A stretch of 58,452 bases of DNA from Bdellovibrionales bacterium RIFOXYD12_FULL_39_22 (GTDB lineage Bacteria; Bdellovibrionota; Bacteriovoracia; Bacteriovoracales; Bacteriovoracaceae), in assembly GCA_001770205.1 (NCBI GenBank), contig MEQL01000025.1, positions 62,001 through 120,452 on the forward strand, in the 5' to 3' direction. Of the stretch, positions 33,001 through 39,000 are shown one piece after another (within the stretch, counting starts at the first letter, position 1; every line of letters begins with the position of its first letter). Position numbers: made by a program.

Positions 33001-36000
33001 AAAATTGTATCCTCGGCTCCATCCCCTCCAACACAATAGATGGAATTATATATGGCAGGATCGTGAATCTTGTAACAATAAGTGGTATCCCTCTCAATCT
33101 TATCCAAGACCCTTGTCATAATTCCGCTATAAACAGCAAGGTCATCTCTCCCAATACAATCACAAATTTTGATCATGGTTACTTCGTTAAAATATTTTGT
33201 TAGCGGTGTTACTCTCTTTGCCTTCGGAGGTCGACACGATTCTTCATAATCAGCTTTTGCCAGAGGAACTATGAATTTCTCAATATCACCGGTCGATATT
33301 TTTTGCGGATCTCGATAAGAACAATTATCTAAGCACTCAGAATATCCGCCTCCAGGATTTTTGTCGGAAGCCACAAGAATGGGAAGCAGACTAAAAAATA
33401 AGAGAAAAAACAAACCAAAAAATGAAACGCTAAACTGTTTCATACAAAACACTCCCCCTGTCGTTTAACCATATAACGCAGCAGCACGACTATGGTATTG
33501 ACACTTAAATTTTTTCACAGATCATGAGTAAGTCAACTATTTTAAGTTATGCAAAAATTGCCGTTGGATTGATATGGTAGCTTTGGCAGTATTAAATTAT
33601 AAGTAGTCATACATCCCTCAAGATACGAGGATGTAGTGATGCTTGTTGATGGGGGCCAGCTATGCTGCCGAGCAAATATCCTTAAACTCAGCAGTTTTTT
33701 GCACGAATTCTGGTGGGCCATCATGAATAATTTTGCCATTATCAATCAAAATTACTCTGGTAAAGCGATTTAGTTCTTCGTAGTCATGAGTAGTGCAAAT
33801 TACTAAATCAGAAGATAATTTAGAAAAGAGCAAATCCCAAACAACTTGTTTTATTTTTCCATTCAACGCTGTAGTCGGTTCATCAAAAATATTAATGGCC
33901 CCGATGCGATTAATCACGCGAGCAAGAGATAGTCGTTTGGCCTCTCCTCCCGAAATGTTTGAAGCTTTTTCAGCAATTCTTTTTTTCTCATCTTGAAAAG
34001 AGTGGTTGAGATCAAGTATATCAAATATTTTCTTTTGCGATTCTTCTAATTTGTCCTGATAAAAGACACTCTCTGCTAAATTACCAGAGATCAAATATGG
34101 TGATTGTGGACAATATCTAAGCAAATCAAAATGTGAGCTAGAAGATAGTTTATTAAGGGAGACACCATCCACCAGAACATTGTCACGTGACTCTGCTCGC
34201 ATTCCTGCAGCAATTTCAATAAAGCTACTCTTTCCTTTTCCAGTTGCTCCTACTACGGCAACTTTCTCTCCTCGGCCAAACGTTAATTCTTTTTCAATGG
34301 TAAAGCTAGATAGGCCCTTAGTAATAATTTGTGGTAGTAGTTTTAATTCCTCGGCAGTTGTCAACTTTATTCCATCTCTATCAAATGCAGACATAGATAA
34401 AGTTGCATTTAGTCCTTTTATATCCACACTAAATTGATCAAAGTGTCTTATAGATTGTAATAATTGATTGAAGGCAGCGGATAATCTGGCCGTTATGGCC
34501 AGAAGTGTGAATAGGTGTCCAATGCTCATCAAATTGTTTTTGATGGAATAAATTCCCCAAAACAGTGTTAGTAATAATACCGCATTGGAGGAATTATAAA
34601 ATAAATTATCAATGAAAGAACCAGATACTGATAATTTAACAGATTTTTCAGCATAACTTTTAAAGGGGAAGCTAATACGCGACAGCGCGTATTCGGTGGC
34701 CTTTTCGATTTTAAAAATTATTCCATTTGTTAATACTTCTACCATTTCTCCTGTCACCTCATCTTCCGCATCATTTACCTCATTTAGTTGCTCGCGTCGT
34801 TTTTTTATTAACGCTACAACTATTAACTGATGGGCCATTAATACCAATAAGATCACAACTAAAAGAGTGGATGCTTTTAAATAGGCCAATATTATTGCCG
34901 ATATCAAAAGTTCTAATAAAATTGGAATAACCGAAGTGGTTATATGGCCAAGTAGTTTTTCATGAGCGGTTATTCCTCGTTCAATAGAGTGGACAACCCT
35001 GCCAACTTGCTTGTCATCAAAATTATGCATATCCTTTTTTAGAATAATTTCAATCCATTTCATGGAATGGGCATAAATATTTTCTTGGACAAATTTTGTT
35101 AACGCATATGTTTGCAGTGGAGTGAGAAGTAAAGTTGCAAACCAGATGGTGATAAAAATTATAATATTGCCATCTAAATAGCTAAGAGTCTGCCAATTAT
35201 TATTGAGCTGATCAAAAATTTTACCAGTATAGAGCGGCATTAGCAGAGCAAAAACCTTTAGGCCCGCGATCAAGCTAAGGGCAGAAACAAATAACCCTCT
35301 TTTTTCTTTTATGCAGTCATATAAAAAGGCCAATATTGACTTAATTGTTCTCATAGTCTCTCCTCGTGAAATAATAATTTTGTGGAACTACCGGCAAACC
35401 ACTTCGTATCAGGTGAAACCTATCCATACCAGGAATAAAGACTTGAACAATAGACACTCCTTCATGGTTTAGAATTTCTCGAAACAGTGGTGAAAATCCG
35501 GCGGCAAAAAGTTTTTGATTTAAATAGATAACTTGATCTTTTGTACTGGCCGCGGCCATCCGTTTTGAAAAATGTAATGGCGGCGATAATGGTGAAGATA
35601 TTTTTTTTAAATCACTAAATTCGATATAAATTAATTTTCTCAAAAGGCCATTTGCTGACAAGAAAGCAATTGCTTGTTCATCTTCCGCATTTTCTTTTTC
35701 GGAGTTAAGTGCAACCAACTGCAAAAGTTCATCCATACTTCGCAATATTGCTAAATCAAAAGAAAGCGAACTCCCACCTCCGGCCATTGATAATTTAAAC
35801 TTATATCTGCATCTACTACTATCTTTCAAAAAAGAAAATGCGACAAAAGAGTTAAATGGAGTCTGTGTAAACACAGTCATGACTTCGCTATTGGTATCAC
35901 CAACAATTTTTTTTCTTGTAGTTAAAATTTCTGGAGTTGCAAATTCCATCTCTGAACATATTAAATGCCACTTGATGCCAGTAGAACGGCCAATAAGATC

Positions 36001-39000
36001 AAGACAAAGTTGAGAGTAGTAATGCCGTTCAATAGTTTCATTTATTCCATGAAGATACGCATCCTCAAAAGTTATCCCCAAACTTGTACCTGAATTGGAA
36101 GAGTATTTTCCCAAGGTCTGCTCTTGCAGCGAGGCCATCTTGGCATAAAATGGATTGACTAAAACATACGGCACCAGACAATTTCTTTGCGTTATAGCAT
36201 TCGTAAAATTTACACTTTGAAGTCTATTATTTTTATTATTATCGTTTTCGTAACCATGATCGTTATCATTCCTGCTTGCTCTCAAAATTCCATCCAATTT
36301 GAATTCATTTTGATCGATAATTTTCGAAAAGGTTGTCGGTTGCAACAATACCTTTAACGTATCTTGCATAAGAAGATAATGTTCAATTGCCTCGGCCTGT
36401 GCCCCGATAGAATGATTTTTTCCTTTACCACTTCCTGCGGCCAATTCATTCCCGGCCTCATCAAATATGGCCACATGCGAGACTTGTCGACTAGCATCTT
36501 TGACTATAGTTTTAGTTTTTAGATGGTATGTATTTAATAAATTTCCAATGGCCTTGCGCGCCACTTTCGTTGTTGTTGATCGTTCTAGGTTGTACAAATT
36601 CATTGGCCCCTACTTAATGGCCCGAGGTAATTACCTTGGGCCATTGATTGAAAATGACTATTTTAAAGTCTGAAAAAAAGTTGACTCGATAATGGTAATA
36701 GGCGGTAATATTGCGCCAATATTTATTTCTGTTCTTCTTCCCATAGACTACTCCTTGTTTGATAATGCGTTATTGCACTTCGTGATGATGCACTTGTGCA
36801 CAACCTATGCCATTCTCGTTTAGTGAGTAATTAGTGAGTTAGCAAAAAGTAAGCGTTAACTGTTCTCAAATTGAGTACGTTGAAATTCAATAATTCAATA
36901 ATTCGTTATGCAATATTTTATCTTCTAAGCAGAATTTTTTAAGCCGGAGTGTCCAGAATTTGGACGGCCATGAATAATTTACCTTACAGCAGAGTCCTCG
37001 ACTATATTTTTTTAAAATTATCGCTACAATCAAATTCAACACAAAACGATTTCGACAGTAGAGTGCTTGTTGACTGTATATGATGAATAAGAAAAACAAC
37101 TGTTCAATGTCACCTTGACTGTCCAATATAAGGAGATAATTTATGAAAAAACTTTTGTTAGTCATTTTAGTAATTGCAATATCCGCGGCAAATATTTTTG
37201 CCAAAGATATTTTTGCTGCCAAAAATACTCCAGCGGCGGTTATAGAGTCTGCCAAAACTTTAAAGTTTGATGACACCAGAATCACCGTAAAAAAAGTTCG
37301 CAACCTCGACGGAAACCCTTGTATGCCGGCCGGAGAATCTTACGACGCATCATTACAAGTAAGAGAGGCGCAGTATTACCATCCAGAAAAAAACAAAACT
37401 ATATATAAATGGAAGGTAGTTAAAACAGTCAATATTGATAAAGAAGGCCGCGTTATGGAAGTGTGCGGCGAATAATAACAACTAAATAACAAGGCCAATG
37501 AAAAACAAATGGTAGGTGAATATGAAAAAACTAATCCTTTTAATCCTTCTTCTCTCAATATCAACTCTCTTCGCACAAAGTATTAGCGAAGTGCCCTATT
37601 ACTTCGCATTGCCGGTAAGCGCTCATGCAGAGATCAGCGATAGCGACTGGGTTAAAATTCCGGTGAGGGGAGTAAAAACAGAGCAAGCATATTTACGCGG
37701 CTACAGCTTTCAGGAGCGTGGGGCCAATGGTTCCGAAGCACAGAAAGCTGGCCGCCGCGAGGCCTTTCAAGAACTCTATAGTAAAGGCCTACTGCAAACT
37801 GGCGACGTAGTATTAAGTATGCGCCCGGCGTGGGAAGGGACTATTCCTTATTCCCATATTCAAATGGGCGTCTCTCATGCCAGCCTAGTAATTGTAGAAG
37901 ATGGAGTAGTAAAAAATTTGGATATGCCTCTCGATGATAACTACAATGGAAATGGACTCAATGGCCGCTTTGACGGCAGTCACTTTCAAGAGACTAATCA
38001 CTACCAAATTCTCCGCAATCGCGTTTTTACCGCCGAACAGCGAGAGAACCTAATTGCCTGGGTAAAAGAATTACGCAAAAATTACACAAGCATCCGCGGA
38101 AAAAATCTTTTGAAATTTAACTCCAATTATATGGCCCCACGGATTGATAACTATGGCCCTGGATACTCTTTCGTTACTACTATGGCCCGCATCATGCTAG
38201 GATACGATAAAACCTCCTCCGACTTAATAATGTTTTGCTCTGAATACGTCTGGGCCATCTTATCACTGGCCAATTGCTCACCTGCTGACTCTGAATTTAA
38301 AACGGCCACTCGGGGAGATAGCGCTAGCTGCGTAAAACCCATTTTCAACGCCATGTATCTTCTGGAAAGTGAAAATGCTCCAGGACTAACCGAAGGCCCT
38401 CTCACTCTTTTAAAATCTATGAGTGACGTTAATGACCTCGAAAAAAATCCACTATTATTCACCCTTTTTGCACAGGGAGAAATTGCCGCCCTCTCTAGTG
38501 GCCATAAGGCCATCGCCACCAATCCGGCAATTAACATGCTCATTGAAATGCTAAAGCAAATTTACCCAGCAAAACTTGCCGGAATGGATAAACTTCCGGA
38601 AGTAAGTGCTAAAACCTCTGCCATCAATGCCAAGGGCGGCCGCAACTACTCTCCGACCGCCTTTTTGATAAATACAACCATTGATAGTGCCAACGCTGAT
38701 CGTAGTTTTGATTACACAGCGACCGTAAGCTTTACTCCGTACTACTAGTCTTAATACTAACCCAACCTCCGACCTTAATATCAAGGGCCAACTCTGCTTG
38801 GCCCTTGACTTACGCACAAGTTACGCTTACGATATAAAGCATCCTATGCCACCACCGACACGTAAAATTATTCATGTAGATATGGATTGCTTCTTTGCCG
38901 CAGTCGAAATGCGAGATAGTCCACATCTTAAAAATTTGCCGCTTGCCATTGGATCTCCTCCTGGCAGTCGTGGCGTAATTTCCACTGCCAACTACCTGGC

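What a model noticed while it worked through the whole genome (the two positions that open the first line are those of the whole stretch)
33660..36744. YcaO gene cluster with a conserved 28-aa precursor-like ORF (candidate new RiPP)
An uncalled 28-codon ORF (C25:98658-98744, minus strand; MGRRTEIN...ESTFFQTLK) with a strong Shine-Dalgarno lies 54 nt upstream of a stand-alone YcaO (g00980), which is followed by an ABC exporter (g00979). The same three-gene order, with a 37-aa ORF sharing the MG(K)RRTEIN start and the E.TFF..K end, exists in one other Bacteriovoracaceae genus. This is a candidate precursor-YcaO-exporter RiPP cluster of an undescribed family.
Evidence so far: ORF and its AAGGAG shortly before the ATG found by six-frame scan of the 539-nt gap upstream of g00980. 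YcaO homolog (36% identity, E 2e-59) in 1 of 236 other family genomes (G054, call 93), 0 of 400 phylum genomes sampled at E 1e-25. In G054 the ORF [sequence left out] (L163:1365-1478) abuts the YcaO ORF (listed from 1462) and the ABC transporter follows (41% identity to g00979 over 494 aa, call 99). Pfam: YcaO only; no E1-like, TfuA, dehydrogenase or protease gene nearby.
(Added by a program. Inside this text positions count along the whole contig: contig position 62,001 is position 1 of the stretch shown here. "Call 12" and the like, gene names such as g00115 and contig names such as C1 are that model's own, and its searches are not shown. The text may have been shortened before it was handed on; [...] marks where a part breaks off. 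The agent that wrote the report below was given it as the finding of a first reader that could run no searches.)

Follow-up and report, generated by a model that had tools for sequence, protein, structure and literature searches.

The report
Leaderless peptide, YcaO, exporter cassette
A tiny gene for a 28-residue peptide, an enzyme that chemically alters peptide backbones (YcaO) and a dedicated export pump form a compact three-gene unit that also occurs in many Pseudomonas and a few other bacteria, and it most likely makes a small modified peptide of a family that no searched paper describes.

Summary
A 28-codon ORF (36658-36744, minus strand) has AAGGAG 6 nt before its ATG. It lies 54 nt upstream of a stand-alone YcaO gene, which overlaps a fused ABC exporter gene by 14 nt.

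Thirty-six further loci carry an ORF starting MG-x(1-3)-[RK]-[ST]-E directly upstream of a homologous YcaO. They come from many Pseudomonas species, three Bdellovibrionota MAGs, two Alphaproteobacteria MAGs, one Lactobacillales genome and metagenomes. A transporter gene (14 ABC, 1 MFS) followed in all 15 loci checked.

- **Translation:** the small ORF is under purifying selection (pN/pS 0.17-0.39).
- **RNA structure:** a GC-rich stem-loop separates the ORF from the YcaO gene in 27 of 29 loci.
- **Complex model:** score 0.85 against 0.01 for the best control. It docks the conserved C-terminal E-x-x-F-F motif on the YcaO C-terminal segment and places the invariant N-terminal R-[S/T]-E-I block among invariant YcaO residues taken, from recall, as the ATP/Mg site.

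My reading is a minimal RiPP cassette with a leaderless, N-terminal core and a C-terminal follower, as in bottromycin. The chemistry is open: oxazoline at Arg-Thr, an N-terminal macroamidine or a thioamide. I found no publication on this family. It is a new variant of a known kind.

The parts
36658..36744 (-). Precursor-peptide gene, 28 codons: MGRRTEINIGAILPPITIIESTFFQTLK. The N-terminal block is MG-RR-T-E-I-N and the C-terminal block is E-S-T-F-F.
   Evidence: ORF and translation. Homologous ORFs upstream of homologous YcaO genes in 36 other loci. Purifying selection in the Pseudomonas orthologues, pN/pS 0.17-0.39. Single copy in the genome.
36751..36756 (-). Shine-Dalgarno AAGGAG, 6 nt before the ATG of the peptide gene
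   Evidence: Read directly. A GGAG-type site also precedes the ATG of the homologous ORFs (upstream stretches printed).
36616..36645 (-). Stem-loop (8 + 4 pairs) in the 54-nt spacer between the peptide stop and the YcaO start. No T-run follows it.
   Evidence: MFE -18.8 kcal/mol, z = -3.6 against 200 shuffles. A comparable GC-rich stem-loop of different sequence lies at the same place in 27 of 29 spacers examined. No Rfam match.
35341..36603 (-). Stand-alone YcaO, 420 aa
   Evidence: Pfam PF02624, E 3.7e-22. Model pLDDT 89.3, pTM 0.91. Foldseek matches all solved YcaO types about equally (TM about 0.6, 13-19% identity). Conserved acidic and Arg residues E71, E74, E189, E192, R193, E292 are invariant in 36 family members.
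33660..35354 (-). Fused ABC exporter (membrane domain plus ATPase, 564 aa) with no C39 peptidase domain. It overlaps the YcaO gene by 14 nt.
   Evidence: Pfam ABC_membrane and ABC_tran. The best NCBIfam models are type I secretion and bacteriocin exporters, aligned from their position 145-168 onward. It is the reciprocal best hit of the cassette ABC of Pseudomonas putida QH1: 4.2e-72 against 3.5e-13 for the next hit, and 2.8e-70 against 2.6e-22. It is 42% identical to the G054 protein.

Best explanation
This is a minimal three-gene cassette for a ribosomally made, enzymatically modified and exported peptide (a RiPP).

1. **Synthesis.** The 28-residue peptide is translated from a strong ribosome-binding site. 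A stem-loop after its stop codon probably lets the peptide message outnumber or outlive the enzyme message (inferred).
2. **Met removal.** The peptide has no leader. Its start Met is probably removed because residue 2 is Gly (general rule of methionine aminopeptidase; inferred here).
3. **Recognition.** The conserved C-terminal E-x-x-F-F motif acts as a follower that docks on the C-terminal segment of the YcaO, residues 404-411 (model only).
4. **Modification.** This docking brings the invariant N-terminal block R-T-E-I into the YcaO active site (model only). There the YcaO activates one backbone amide with ATP. I put the product as follows: about 0.45, the Arg4-Thr5 amide is attacked by the Thr5 hydroxyl to give a methyloxazoline; about 0.2, the free amine of Gly2 attacks instead, or resolves the oxazoline, to give an N-terminal macroamidine as in bottromycin; about 0.1, a thioamide; the rest, other chemistry.
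5. **Export.** The dedicated ABC half-transporter, translationally coupled to the YcaO gene, exports the product. No protease is encoded, so the follower either stays on or is trimmed by a host enzyme.

The biological role of the product is not known; an antibiotic, a signal or something else are all open. The confidence of 0.8 is for the RiPP-cassette reading as a whole; the N-terminal-core orientation alone stands at about 0.55.
For: **Shown**
- The gene order and all coordinates.
- The same peptide-YcaO order in 36 other loci from at least three phyla, with M1, G2, R4 and E6 invariant, Ser or Thr always at position 5, and I7 and E20 at 90% or more in 30 aligned peptides.
- No off-target hit of the motif in 82 sources.
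- Purifying selection on the ORF: pN/pS 0.39, 0.36, 0.17 and 0.19 in four Pseudomonas groups.
- A transporter gene within two genes after the YcaO in 15 of 15 loci checked, 14 ABC and 1 MFS.
- The flanking genes differ between loci.
- The ABC proteins are reciprocal best hits across phyla.
- Peptide types follow the YcaO subclades in the tree.
- A stem-loop in the spacer in 27 of 29 loci.

**Model**
- ipSAE was 0.85, 0.82 and 0.85 in three runs; the best of 3 controls was 0.01. The mark was reached by 116 of 157 solved complexes and 2 of 215 mismatched pairs. The runs agree in at least 67% of contacts, and the partner pLDDT is at least 74.
- Peptide residues 19-27 touch YcaO 404-411, 108-112, 204 and 318-321. 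Peptide residues 4-9 lie in the interface with YcaO 57-58, 71, 75, 78, 151-152, 168-171, 193, 292, 295-296 and 398.
- 7 of the 15 invariant YcaO residues lie in this 50-residue interface, hypergeometric p = 7e-4.

**N-terminal Gly theme**
- 49 of 63 loci with an SD-preceded small ORF upstream of a YcaO of this wider clade have one that starts with MG. The control rate is 39 of 758 small ORFs elsewhere in the same loci. About nine of these peptide families are unrelated to each other.

**Peptide arginase**
- Homologues follow the YcaO or the ABC gene in 3 loci with Arg-rich MG-peptides: L021 at 1.3e-33, L062 at 1.8e-50 and L065 at 6.6e-49.
Against: - No product, mass or transcript was seen. The sequencing runs I laid gave no evidence of transcription.
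- The complex is a prediction. It used my own alignments and a 28-residue partner, which lies outside the tool's calibration. Contacts of Gly2 and Arg3 are not named in it.
- That E71, E74, E189, E192 and R193 are the ATP/Mg ligands rests on recall of the E. coli YcaO work, not on a call.
- G054 has no spacer stem-loop, and L026 lacks the F-F motif.
- The number of basic residues between Gly and Ser/Thr is 2 in the window and 3 elsewhere. A macroamidine tied to that Ser/Thr would therefore differ in ring size between members.
- The arginase clue is weak. Those peptides also have an Arg near the C-terminus, and published peptide arginases leave leader Arg residues untouched (PMC12703449, passages).
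- The cassette encodes no protease, immunity or dehydrogenase gene.
- A small ORF followed by a stem-loop is also what a regulatory leader peptide looks like.
Confidence: 0.8

Rival explanations
1. It is the same RiPP cassette with the conventional orientation. The invariant N-terminal MG-RR-[S/T]-EI block is a short leader recognised by the YcaO, and the modified core lies in the variable middle or in the C-terminal E-x-x-F-F block.
For: In most RiPP families the most conserved part of the precursor is the recognition sequence, and it is N-terminal (general knowledge). The N-terminal block is the most conserved part here. Published peptide arginases leave leader Arg residues untouched (PMC12703449, passages), so the arginase clue does not fix the core at the N-terminus.
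Against: The complex model puts the N-terminal block, not the C-terminal one, among the invariant YcaO residues taken as catalytic. Its most confident contacts dock the C-terminal motif on the C-terminal segment, away from those residues. The only residue with a nucleophilic side chain that is present in all 30 peptides is the Ser/Thr of the N-terminal block. The MG start is enriched in unrelated peptide families of the wider YcaO clade, which points to a role for the N-terminus itself.
Confidence: 0.15
2. The small ORF is a regulatory leader peptide (uORF). Its translation, together with the downstream stem-loop, tunes expression of the YcaO and ABC genes, and the YcaO acts on some other substrate.
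For: A short ORF with a strong SD is followed within 15 nt by a stable stem-loop just before the next gene. The arrangement is conserved.
Against: Most of the stem-loops have no T-run, so they are not intrinsic terminators. G054 keeps the peptide but has no stem-loop. Both ends of the peptide are conserved as amino acids across phyla, while the DNA and the stem-loop sequence change. Peptide types co-vary with the YcaO subclades. The complex model passes with controls at 0.01 or below. A YcaO needs a peptide or protein substrate, and no other candidate is conserved next to it.
Confidence: 0.07
3. The YcaO modifies a housekeeping protein, as E. coli-type YcaO does with ribosomal protein S12 maturation. 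The small protein is then an accessory subunit or an unrelated small protein.
For: Some YcaO proteins act on proteins rather than on RiPP precursors; NCBIfam names such models, YcaO_for_S12 and the McrA-glycine thioamidation protein. The closest solved relative by sequence is the McrA-type YcaO MJ1094, E 3.1e-13.
Against: Scores to those models are far below their cut-offs: 29.6 against 365 for methan_mark_1, and no hit to YcaO_for_S12 for the window protein. The distribution is patchy: 1 of 236 other family genomes, 44 of 401 Pseudomonas genomes, and some broken copies. The cassette has lower GC than its flanks and a dedicated exporter. None of this fits a housekeeping role.
Confidence: 0.03

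Closest known systems
Bottromycin pathway (precursor with follower peptide; stand-alone YcaOs for thiazoline and macroamidine)
   Same: The YcaO works without an E1-like, ThiF-like or TfuA partner. The precursor has no N-terminal leader and carries a C-terminal follower to which the enzymes bind. The start Met is removed and the new N-terminus takes part in a YcaO-made macroamidine (bottromycin facts from passages of PMC7136475). Here the YcaO is stand-alone, the MG start is invariant, and the C-terminal motif is modelled as the docking element.
   Different: Bottromycin clusters have two YcaOs, radical-SAM methyltransferases, a dedicated Met-removing peptidase, an amidohydrolase and a P450. 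None of these is present here. The peptide sequences are unrelated. Kinship of this YcaO to the bottromycin YcaOs could not be tested because I held no sequences of them. The chemistry here is unknown.
Streptamidine family (AmiA precursor, AmiD YcaO; Actinobacteria and Firmicutes)
   Same: It is a widespread RiPP family found through stand-alone YcaOs, with precursors that lack Cys/Ser/Thr-rich cores. Its amidine forms between an N-terminal amine and the carbonyl that precedes a Ser, and ABC transporters lie in the cluster (PMC8442711, passages).
   Different: Streptamidine precursors have a leader, a core and a follower, with 'ALV'-containing motifs. Their clusters encode AmiB, a hydrolase, a dehydrogenase and iron transporters. 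None of these motifs or genes is present here.
Klebsazolicin and microcin B17 type linear azol(in)e peptides (TOMM/LAP)
   Same: These involve ATP-dependent YcaO activation of the amide before Ser/Thr/Cys. Klebsazolicin also carries an N-terminal amidine made by its YcaO (PMC8442711, passages). An ABC exporter lies in the cluster.
   Different: They need an E1-like partner and a dehydrogenase and have Cys/Ser/Thr-rich cores behind an N-terminal leader. Here there is no partner, no dehydrogenase and only one invariant Ser/Thr. The TIGR03604 score is 35.7 against a cut-off of 219.
McrA-glycine thioamidation YcaO (MJ1094; PDB 6pe3, 6peu)
   Same: It is the closest solved structure by sequence profile (E 3.1e-13) and among the best by fold. 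It is of similar size, about 385 aa, with no fused domains.
   Different: Identity is 18-19%. The TIGR03266 score is 29.6 against a cut-off of 365. Its substrate is a large enzyme, not a co-encoded peptide, and no exporter accompanies it.

Membership tests
YcaO superfamily (PF02624) | Sequence match to the YcaO domain above the curated cut-off | tested here: met
   79.5 bits against a cut-off of 25.7, E 3.7e-22, covering residues 66-393
YcaO superfamily (PF02624) | YcaO fold | tested here: met
   AlphaFold2 model with pLDDT 89.3. 41 PDB matches at E <= 0.001, and every one shown at that level is a YcaO chain (LynD, MjYcaO, EcYcaO, MusD, MkYcaO, TruD, McbD), TM about 0.5-0.6.
YcaO superfamily (PF02624) | Conserved acidic and Arg residues of the ATP/Mg site | tested here: met
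   E71, E74, E189, E192, R193 and E292 are invariant in 36 family members. That they are equivalent to the E. coli YcaO ligands is recalled, not tested.
Azoline-forming TOMM cyclodehydratase (SagD-type) | E1-like or Ocin-ThiF-like partner, fused or adjacent | tested here: not met
   The 420-aa protein holds the YcaO domain only. Neighbouring genes in the window and in 11 related loci show no such domain.
Azoline-forming TOMM cyclodehydratase (SagD-type) | Match to TIGR03604 above its cut-off | tested here: not met
   35.7 bits against a cut-off of 219.25
Azoline-forming TOMM cyclodehydratase (SagD-type) | Cys/Ser/Thr-rich core behind an N-terminal leader | tested here: not met
   The window peptide has no Cys, and only one Ser/Thr is conserved, at position 5 of 28.
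TfuA-dependent thioamide-forming YcaO | TfuA gene adjacent or in the genome | tested here: not met
   PF07812 was not found in the genome (94.6% complete), while the control genome Methanosarcina rang.
Bottromycin-type pathway | Stand-alone YcaO with a leaderless precursor carrying a C-terminal follower | tested here: inconclusive
   The stand-alone state is shown. The MG start and the conserved C-terminal motif are shown. The follower role rests only on the complex model.
Bottromycin-type pathway | Second YcaO, radical-SAM methyltransferases, Met-removing peptidase, amidohydrolase and P450 in the cluster | tested here: not met
   None is present in the window or in 11 related loci. There is only one YcaO in the genome.
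Bottromycin-type pathway | YcaO groups with the bottromycin YcaOs in a tree | not tested
Streptamidine family | Precursor motif A or B with 'ALV'; AmiB and hydrolase genes | tested here: not met
   No such motif appears in 30 aligned peptides, and there are no extra conserved genes. The family definition comes from PMC8442711 passages.
RiPP biosynthetic cassette (general) | Co-encoded short precursor, modifying enzyme and exporter, conserved as a unit | tested here: met
RiPP biosynthetic cassette (general) | The peptide is modified by the enzyme | not testable with these tools
   Needs expression and mass spectrometry. Only a passing complex model is available.

The most novel reading that the evidence does not exclude
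The cassette belongs to a large, cross-phylum clade of partner-free YcaOs whose substrates are leaderless peptides. In this reading the enzyme uses the free amine of the N-terminal Gly, exposed by Met removal, to close an N-terminal macroamidine. Bottromycin-type chemistry, known from one elaborate actinobacterial pathway, would then be the common output of minimal three-gene systems in Pseudomonas, predatory bacteria and others. Substrate recognition would rest on a short C-terminal E-x-x-F-F follower bound directly by the YcaO C-terminal segment, with no separate peptide-binding domain. In a subset, a peptide arginase would convert the Arg run to ornithines.
Probability: 0.2. Interest if true: 0.8.

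Novelty: new variant of a known kind. Interest (0 to 1): 0.68.

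Why it matters
YcaO enzymes make several of the rarest backbone modifications in peptide natural products, yet most stand-alone YcaOs have no known substrate.

This finding pairs one such clade with its peptide. In a library of one representative per 50%-identity cluster, 545 proteins match the family profile at E <= 1e-30. About one in nine sampled Pseudomonas genomes carries a YcaO homologue.

The cassette has only three genes, so it can be expressed as it stands. 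A single mass measurement would show which chemistry it performs.

If the modelled recognition holds, it would show how a YcaO finds its substrate without the usual partner or peptide-binding domain. That is useful for engineering. The products are candidates for new antibiotics or signals in soil and plant Pseudomonas and in predatory bacteria.

Tried and rejected
- **Transcription evidence:** runs holding the Pseudomonas putida cassette were found, and four were laid. The three runs filed as RNA hold contigs of up to 91 kb, so they behave like DNA. All four are contigs only. Nothing can be said about expression, transcript ends or a drop at the stem-loop.
- **Promoter and terminator scan of 33200-37300:** 16 promoter-like sites against 14.5 +/- 3.7 in shuffles, and 1 terminator-like site against 3.0 +/- 1.7. 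This is uninformative.
- **Rfam on 36500-37250:** no match at E <= 1.
- **NCBIfam and Pfam on the peptides:** no family for the window peptide or for 9 homologues.
- **Source names of the homologous peptides:** 'hypothetical protein', or wrongly 'alginate O-acetyltransferase'.
- **Literature:** 'MGRRRSEI' anywhere gave 0 papers. Other searches: YcaO + Pseudomonas + ABC transporter + precursor peptide (two papers checked by passages; they describe other clusters), peptide arginase + YcaO, standalone YcaO + Pseudomonas, follower peptide + YcaO + macroamidine, YcaO + ornithine + arginase + RiPP and YcaO + Pseudomonas + amidine. None describes this family. Subscription journals are not in the library, and I opened no supplementary files, so a mention there cannot be ruled out.
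- **Earlier notes of this scan:** nothing on this family.
- **Phylum sample with the family profile:** 5 of 401 genomes including the window's own at E <= 1e-15. The only strong one (G835) has two tandem YcaOs at a contig edge, without the peptide in view, and is another type.
- **Plasmids:** 3 Bacillus plasmids hold a 27%-identical YcaO. In the one examined (H2), a Fic-family gene, not an ABC gene, follows it, so this is not the same cassette.
- **ESM Atlas:** only generic 'YcaO-like' clusters.
- **Downstream 244-aa gene (32718-33452):** not conserved in G054, so it is not part of the cassette.
- **Tree:** the careful tree search did not finish in 300 s, so the quick tree was used.

Full report
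**1. What is in the window**

- On the minus strand, an ATG ORF of 28 codons (36658-36744) encodes MGRRTEINIGAILPPITIIESTFFQTLK. AAGGAG lies 6 nt before its ATG.
- Fifty-four nt after its stop begins a 420-aa ORF (35341-36603). It is a YcaO-domain protein (Pfam PF02624, E 3.7e-22, 79.5 bits against a cut-off of 25.7).
- The YcaO gene's last 14 nt overlap the start of a 564-aa ORF (33660-35354). This ORF has an ABC membrane domain and an ABC ATPase domain.
- The best curated models for the ABC protein are type I secretion and bacteriocin exporters. They align only from their position 145-168 onward, so the protein has no peptidase domain.
- The 539-nt region upstream of the YcaO gene is bounded by a divergent gene that starts at 37143.
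- The genome, 94.6% complete, has no TfuA and no second YcaO. The peptide motif occurs once in it.
- The cassette has 35-37% GC against 41-45% in its flanks.

**2. The family is not rare**

- A word-based search of the large protein collection gave ten further homologues at 27-35% identity.
- With an alignment of these, one scan of species genomes returned 28 loci, and one scan of metagenome contigs returned 53.
- I then looked for ATG ORFs with a Shine-Dalgarno site upstream of each YcaO match in 47 of the 81 loci.
- A pattern for the N-terminal motif (MG, 1-3 residues, R/K, S/T, E) was run over three frames of all 81 loci plus the window region.
- That pattern hit 37 of 82 sources, once each, always directly before the YcaO gene and nowhere else.
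- By record title, the carriers are:
  - about 20 Pseudomonas records;
  - three Bdellovibrionota MAGs (L003, which is G054; L025; L026);
  - a Hyphomicrobiales MAG and a Rhodospirillales MAG;
  - Ignavigranum ruoffiae (Lactobacillales);
  - metagenome contigs.
- In a sample of 401 genomes of the genus of P. putida QH1, 44 have a homologue of that strain's YcaO at E <= 1e-20, nearly all of them full-length. I did not check these for the peptide.
- A profile of 36 family YcaOs finds 545 cluster representatives at E <= 1e-30 among 1.84 billion. That number covers the wider clade.
- In the window's own phylum the cassette is rare. Five of 401 sampled genomes, including its own, match at E <= 1e-15, and the only other strong match is another type.

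**3. The small ORF is a protein-coding gene tied to the YcaO**

- In 30 aligned peptides, M1, G2, R4 and E6 are invariant. Position 5 is always Ser or Thr. I7 and E20 are present in 90% or more (window numbering).
- There are two conserved blocks: MG-(R/K/S/N)-(R/K)-R-(S/T)-E-I at the N-terminus and (S/A)-E-x-x-F-(F/L/Y) near the C-terminus. A linker of variable length and sequence joins them.
- Within four groups of Pseudomonas orthologues of equal length, synonymous differences far exceed non-synonymous ones. pN/pS is 0.39 (11 sequences), 0.36 (6), 0.17 (3) and 0.19 (3).
- The three Pseudomonas peptide types follow three YcaO subclades in a quick maximum-likelihood tree. In that tree the 19 Pseudomonas rows form one group (SH-aLRT 98). 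The window's YcaO groups with G054 and four metagenome proteins (SH-aLRT 82). The careful search did not finish.

**4. The unit is three genes**

- In 11 related loci examined with Pfam, the gene right after the YcaO is a fused ABC exporter in 10. In Ignavigranum it is a peptide-arginase homologue, followed by an ABC ATPase and two permeases.
- In four more distant loci it is an ABC system in three and an MFS transporter in one.
- The flanking genes differ from locus to locus: YgiQ-type radical SAM, DnaB, PutA, a sigma-54 activator and others.
- The window's ABC protein and the cassette ABC of P. putida QH1 are reciprocal best hits by a wide margin: 4.2e-72 against 3.5e-13, and 2.8e-70 against 2.6e-22. 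The G054 protein is 42% identical over 542 aa.
- The 244-aa gene downstream in the window is not conserved in G054.

**5. A conserved RNA feature**

- The spacer between the peptide stop and the YcaO start is 47-63 nt in most loci.
- In the window it folds into a 12-pair stem-loop (36616-36645) of -18.8 kcal/mol, z = -3.6.
- A GC-rich stem-loop of 8-14 pairs and of unrelated sequence lies at the same place in 27 of 29 spacers. z is -2 or lower in 24 of 29.
- G054 has none, and L062 is marginal.
- Only a few of the stem-loops are followed by a T-run (L025, L026, L023, L021).
- I read this as an element that lets the precursor message outnumber or outlive the enzyme message, as is common in bacteriocin operons. 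This is established knowledge applied by inference. Nothing here shows it, and no Rfam family matches.

**6. The enzyme**

- The AlphaFold2 model is confident, with pLDDT 89.3 and pTM 0.91.
- It matches every solved YcaO type about equally (TM about 0.5-0.6, 13-19% identity): LynD, M. jannaschii YcaO, E. coli YcaO, MusD, M. kandleri YcaO, TruD and McbD.
- By sequence profile the nearest solved protein is MJ1094, E 3.1e-13.
- All curated subfamily models score far below their cut-offs.
- Fifteen residues are invariant in 36 family members. They include E71, E74, H75, E189, E192, R193, E292 and Q295. I take the acidic pairs to be the ATP/Mg ligands known from E. coli YcaO; this is recalled, not tested.
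- The protein is therefore an intact YcaO of a clade of its own, with no partner protein.

**7. How peptide and enzyme fit**

- One complex job was run with the family alignments of both chains. It gave ipSAE 0.85, 0.82 and 0.85, against 0.01 for the best of three controls.
- The mark was reached by 116 of 157 solved complexes and by 2 of 215 mismatched pairs. The runs agree in at least 67% of contacts, and the partner pLDDT is at least 74.
- The tool warns that my own alignments and a 28-residue partner lie outside its calibration.
- The most confident contacts join peptide E20, F23, F24 and L27 to YcaO 404-411 (the C-terminal P-V-V-P-Q-N-Y-Y stretch), 108-112, 204 and 318-321.
- Peptide residues 4-9 (R-T-E-I-N-I) lie in the interface with YcaO 57-58, 71, 75, 78, 151-152, 168-171, 193, 292, 295-296 and 398.
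- Seven of the 15 invariant YcaO residues fall in the 50-residue interface, p = 7e-4.
- The model therefore reads the C-terminal block as the docking element and the N-terminal block as the part presented to the catalytic site.

**8. The N-terminal Gly**

- Among all fetched loci of the wider YcaO clade, 63 have an SD-preceded ATG ORF of 15-80 codons just upstream of the YcaO gene. In 49 of them one such ORF starts with MG.
- The control rate is 39 of 758 (5.1%) comparable ORFs elsewhere in the same loci.
- Besides the family described here, about nine unrelated peptide families share this start. They sit in clusters with other tailoring genes:
  - L049 has two YcaOs plus a B12-radical-SAM enzyme.
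  - L040 has a methyltransferase plus an alpha/beta hydrolase.
  - L051 has two JmjC/cupin proteins.
- The loci are kin, so the count is not a formal test. The breadth across unrelated peptides is still striking.
- A Gly in second position means the start Met is removed, which exposes a Gly amine (general rule).
- This is the arrangement of bottromycin. There the precursor has a follower instead of a leader, the Met is removed, and a partner-free YcaO closes an N-terminal macroamidine (PMC7136475, passages).
- In streptamidine and klebsazolicin, an N-terminal amine likewise forms an amidine at the carbonyl that precedes a Ser (PMC8442711, passages).

**9. Mechanism I commit to**

- It is a RiPP cassette (0.8). 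Given that, the core is N-terminal and the follower C-terminal (about 0.55 overall).
- The YcaO phosphorylates the Arg4-Thr5 amide oxygen. The product is most likely a methyloxazoline (0.45). Less likely it is an N-terminal macroamidine formed by the Gly2 amine, directly or through the oxazoline (0.2), a thioamide from free sulfide (0.1), or something else.
- One point argues against a macroamidine tied to the Ser/Thr: the ring would hold three residues in the window and four in most relatives.
- The ABC half-transporter exports the product. Because no protease is encoded, the mature product may be the whole peptide of about 27 residues.

**10. The arginase clue**

- Three loci with the same N-terminal block encode homologues of peptide arginases: NF052474 at E 1.3e-33, 1.8e-50 and 6.6e-49, all below the 350-bit cut-off. 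They also match Pfam UPF0489.
- Such enzymes turn Arg residues of RiPP cores into ornithine. The precursor types described for them do not include a YcaO-linked one: 'YcaO' occurs 0 times in PMC12703449.
- This fits an Arg-rich core, but only weakly. Those peptides also have an Arg near the C-terminus, and leader Arg residues are left untouched by the published enzymes.

**11. Novelty**

- None of the searches listed under Tried and rejected found this peptide family or this cassette.
- NCBIfam and Pfam have no model for the peptide. Public records call it hypothetical, or mis-name it.
- The kind of system, a YcaO-dependent RiPP, is known. This is an undescribed family with an unusual leaderless architecture and a minimal gene set.
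- I therefore rate it a new variant of a known kind. The window's copy is one divergent member of it.

Noticed in passing
L024:4992-5834; L022; genomes G543, G517, G397: Some Pseudomonas copies of the YcaO look broken. L024 has a 280-aa ORF, and L022 has no ORF of 250 aa or more after an intact peptide gene. In the genus sample, G543 has an in-frame TGA, G517 an in-frame TAA, and G397 a 283-aa frame. The cassette seems to decay in some lineages.
   Followed up: no
L049:4618-9357; L040:4651-7847; L051:4860-9507: More distant relatives of this YcaO sit in richer clusters. Their unrelated upstream peptides also start with MG. L049 has two YcaOs plus a B12-binding radical-SAM enzyme. L040 has a YcaO, a methyltransferase and an alpha/beta hydrolase. 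L051 has a YcaO plus two JmjC/cupin proteins.
   Followed up: partly
L021:6051-6872; L062:3791-4801; L065:4044-5054: Peptide-arginase homologues (NF052474, UPF0489) are linked to YcaO and ABC genes and to Arg-rich MG-peptides. The one paper I read on peptide arginases does not mention this combination.
   Followed up: partly
L009:4561-4632; L011:446-508: A second SD-preceded small ORF that also starts with MG (MGLLMYSYN... and MGLPMYSYN...) lies about 110 nt upstream of the precursor gene in two related Pseudomonas loci.
   Followed up: no
L092:3731-5224 (Bacillus thuringiensis plasmid, hit H2; also H1, H3): Three Bacillus plasmids carry a 27%-identical stand-alone YcaO. In the one examined (H2), an upstream ORF holds an internal Met-Gly start, and a Fic-family gene rather than an ABC gene follows. 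The upstream region of L043 has a similar small ORF.
   Followed up: no
window 27576-29915 (+): A 779-aa ORF is built of about 14 near-regular repeats of some 38 residues, each with GGLSIS...G.SF.NKTTAQGLG. Its family was not searched.
   Followed up: no
window 29983-33452 (-): Two ORFs lie directly downstream of the cassette, of 244 aa and 912 aa. Both have hydrophobic N-termini and no significant Pfam or NCBIfam family. The 912-aa one has a long Ser/Gly/Ala-rich middle. The 244-aa one is not conserved in G054.
   Followed up: partly
protein cluster of L018:4841-4939: Public records name the 32-residue Pseudomonas precursor peptide 'alginate O-acetyltransferase'. This looks like an annotation error spread by similarity.
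   Followed up: no
window 32000-37000: The cassette and the genes just downstream have 35-37% GC against 41-45% on both sides. This fits horizontal acquisition.
   Followed up: no
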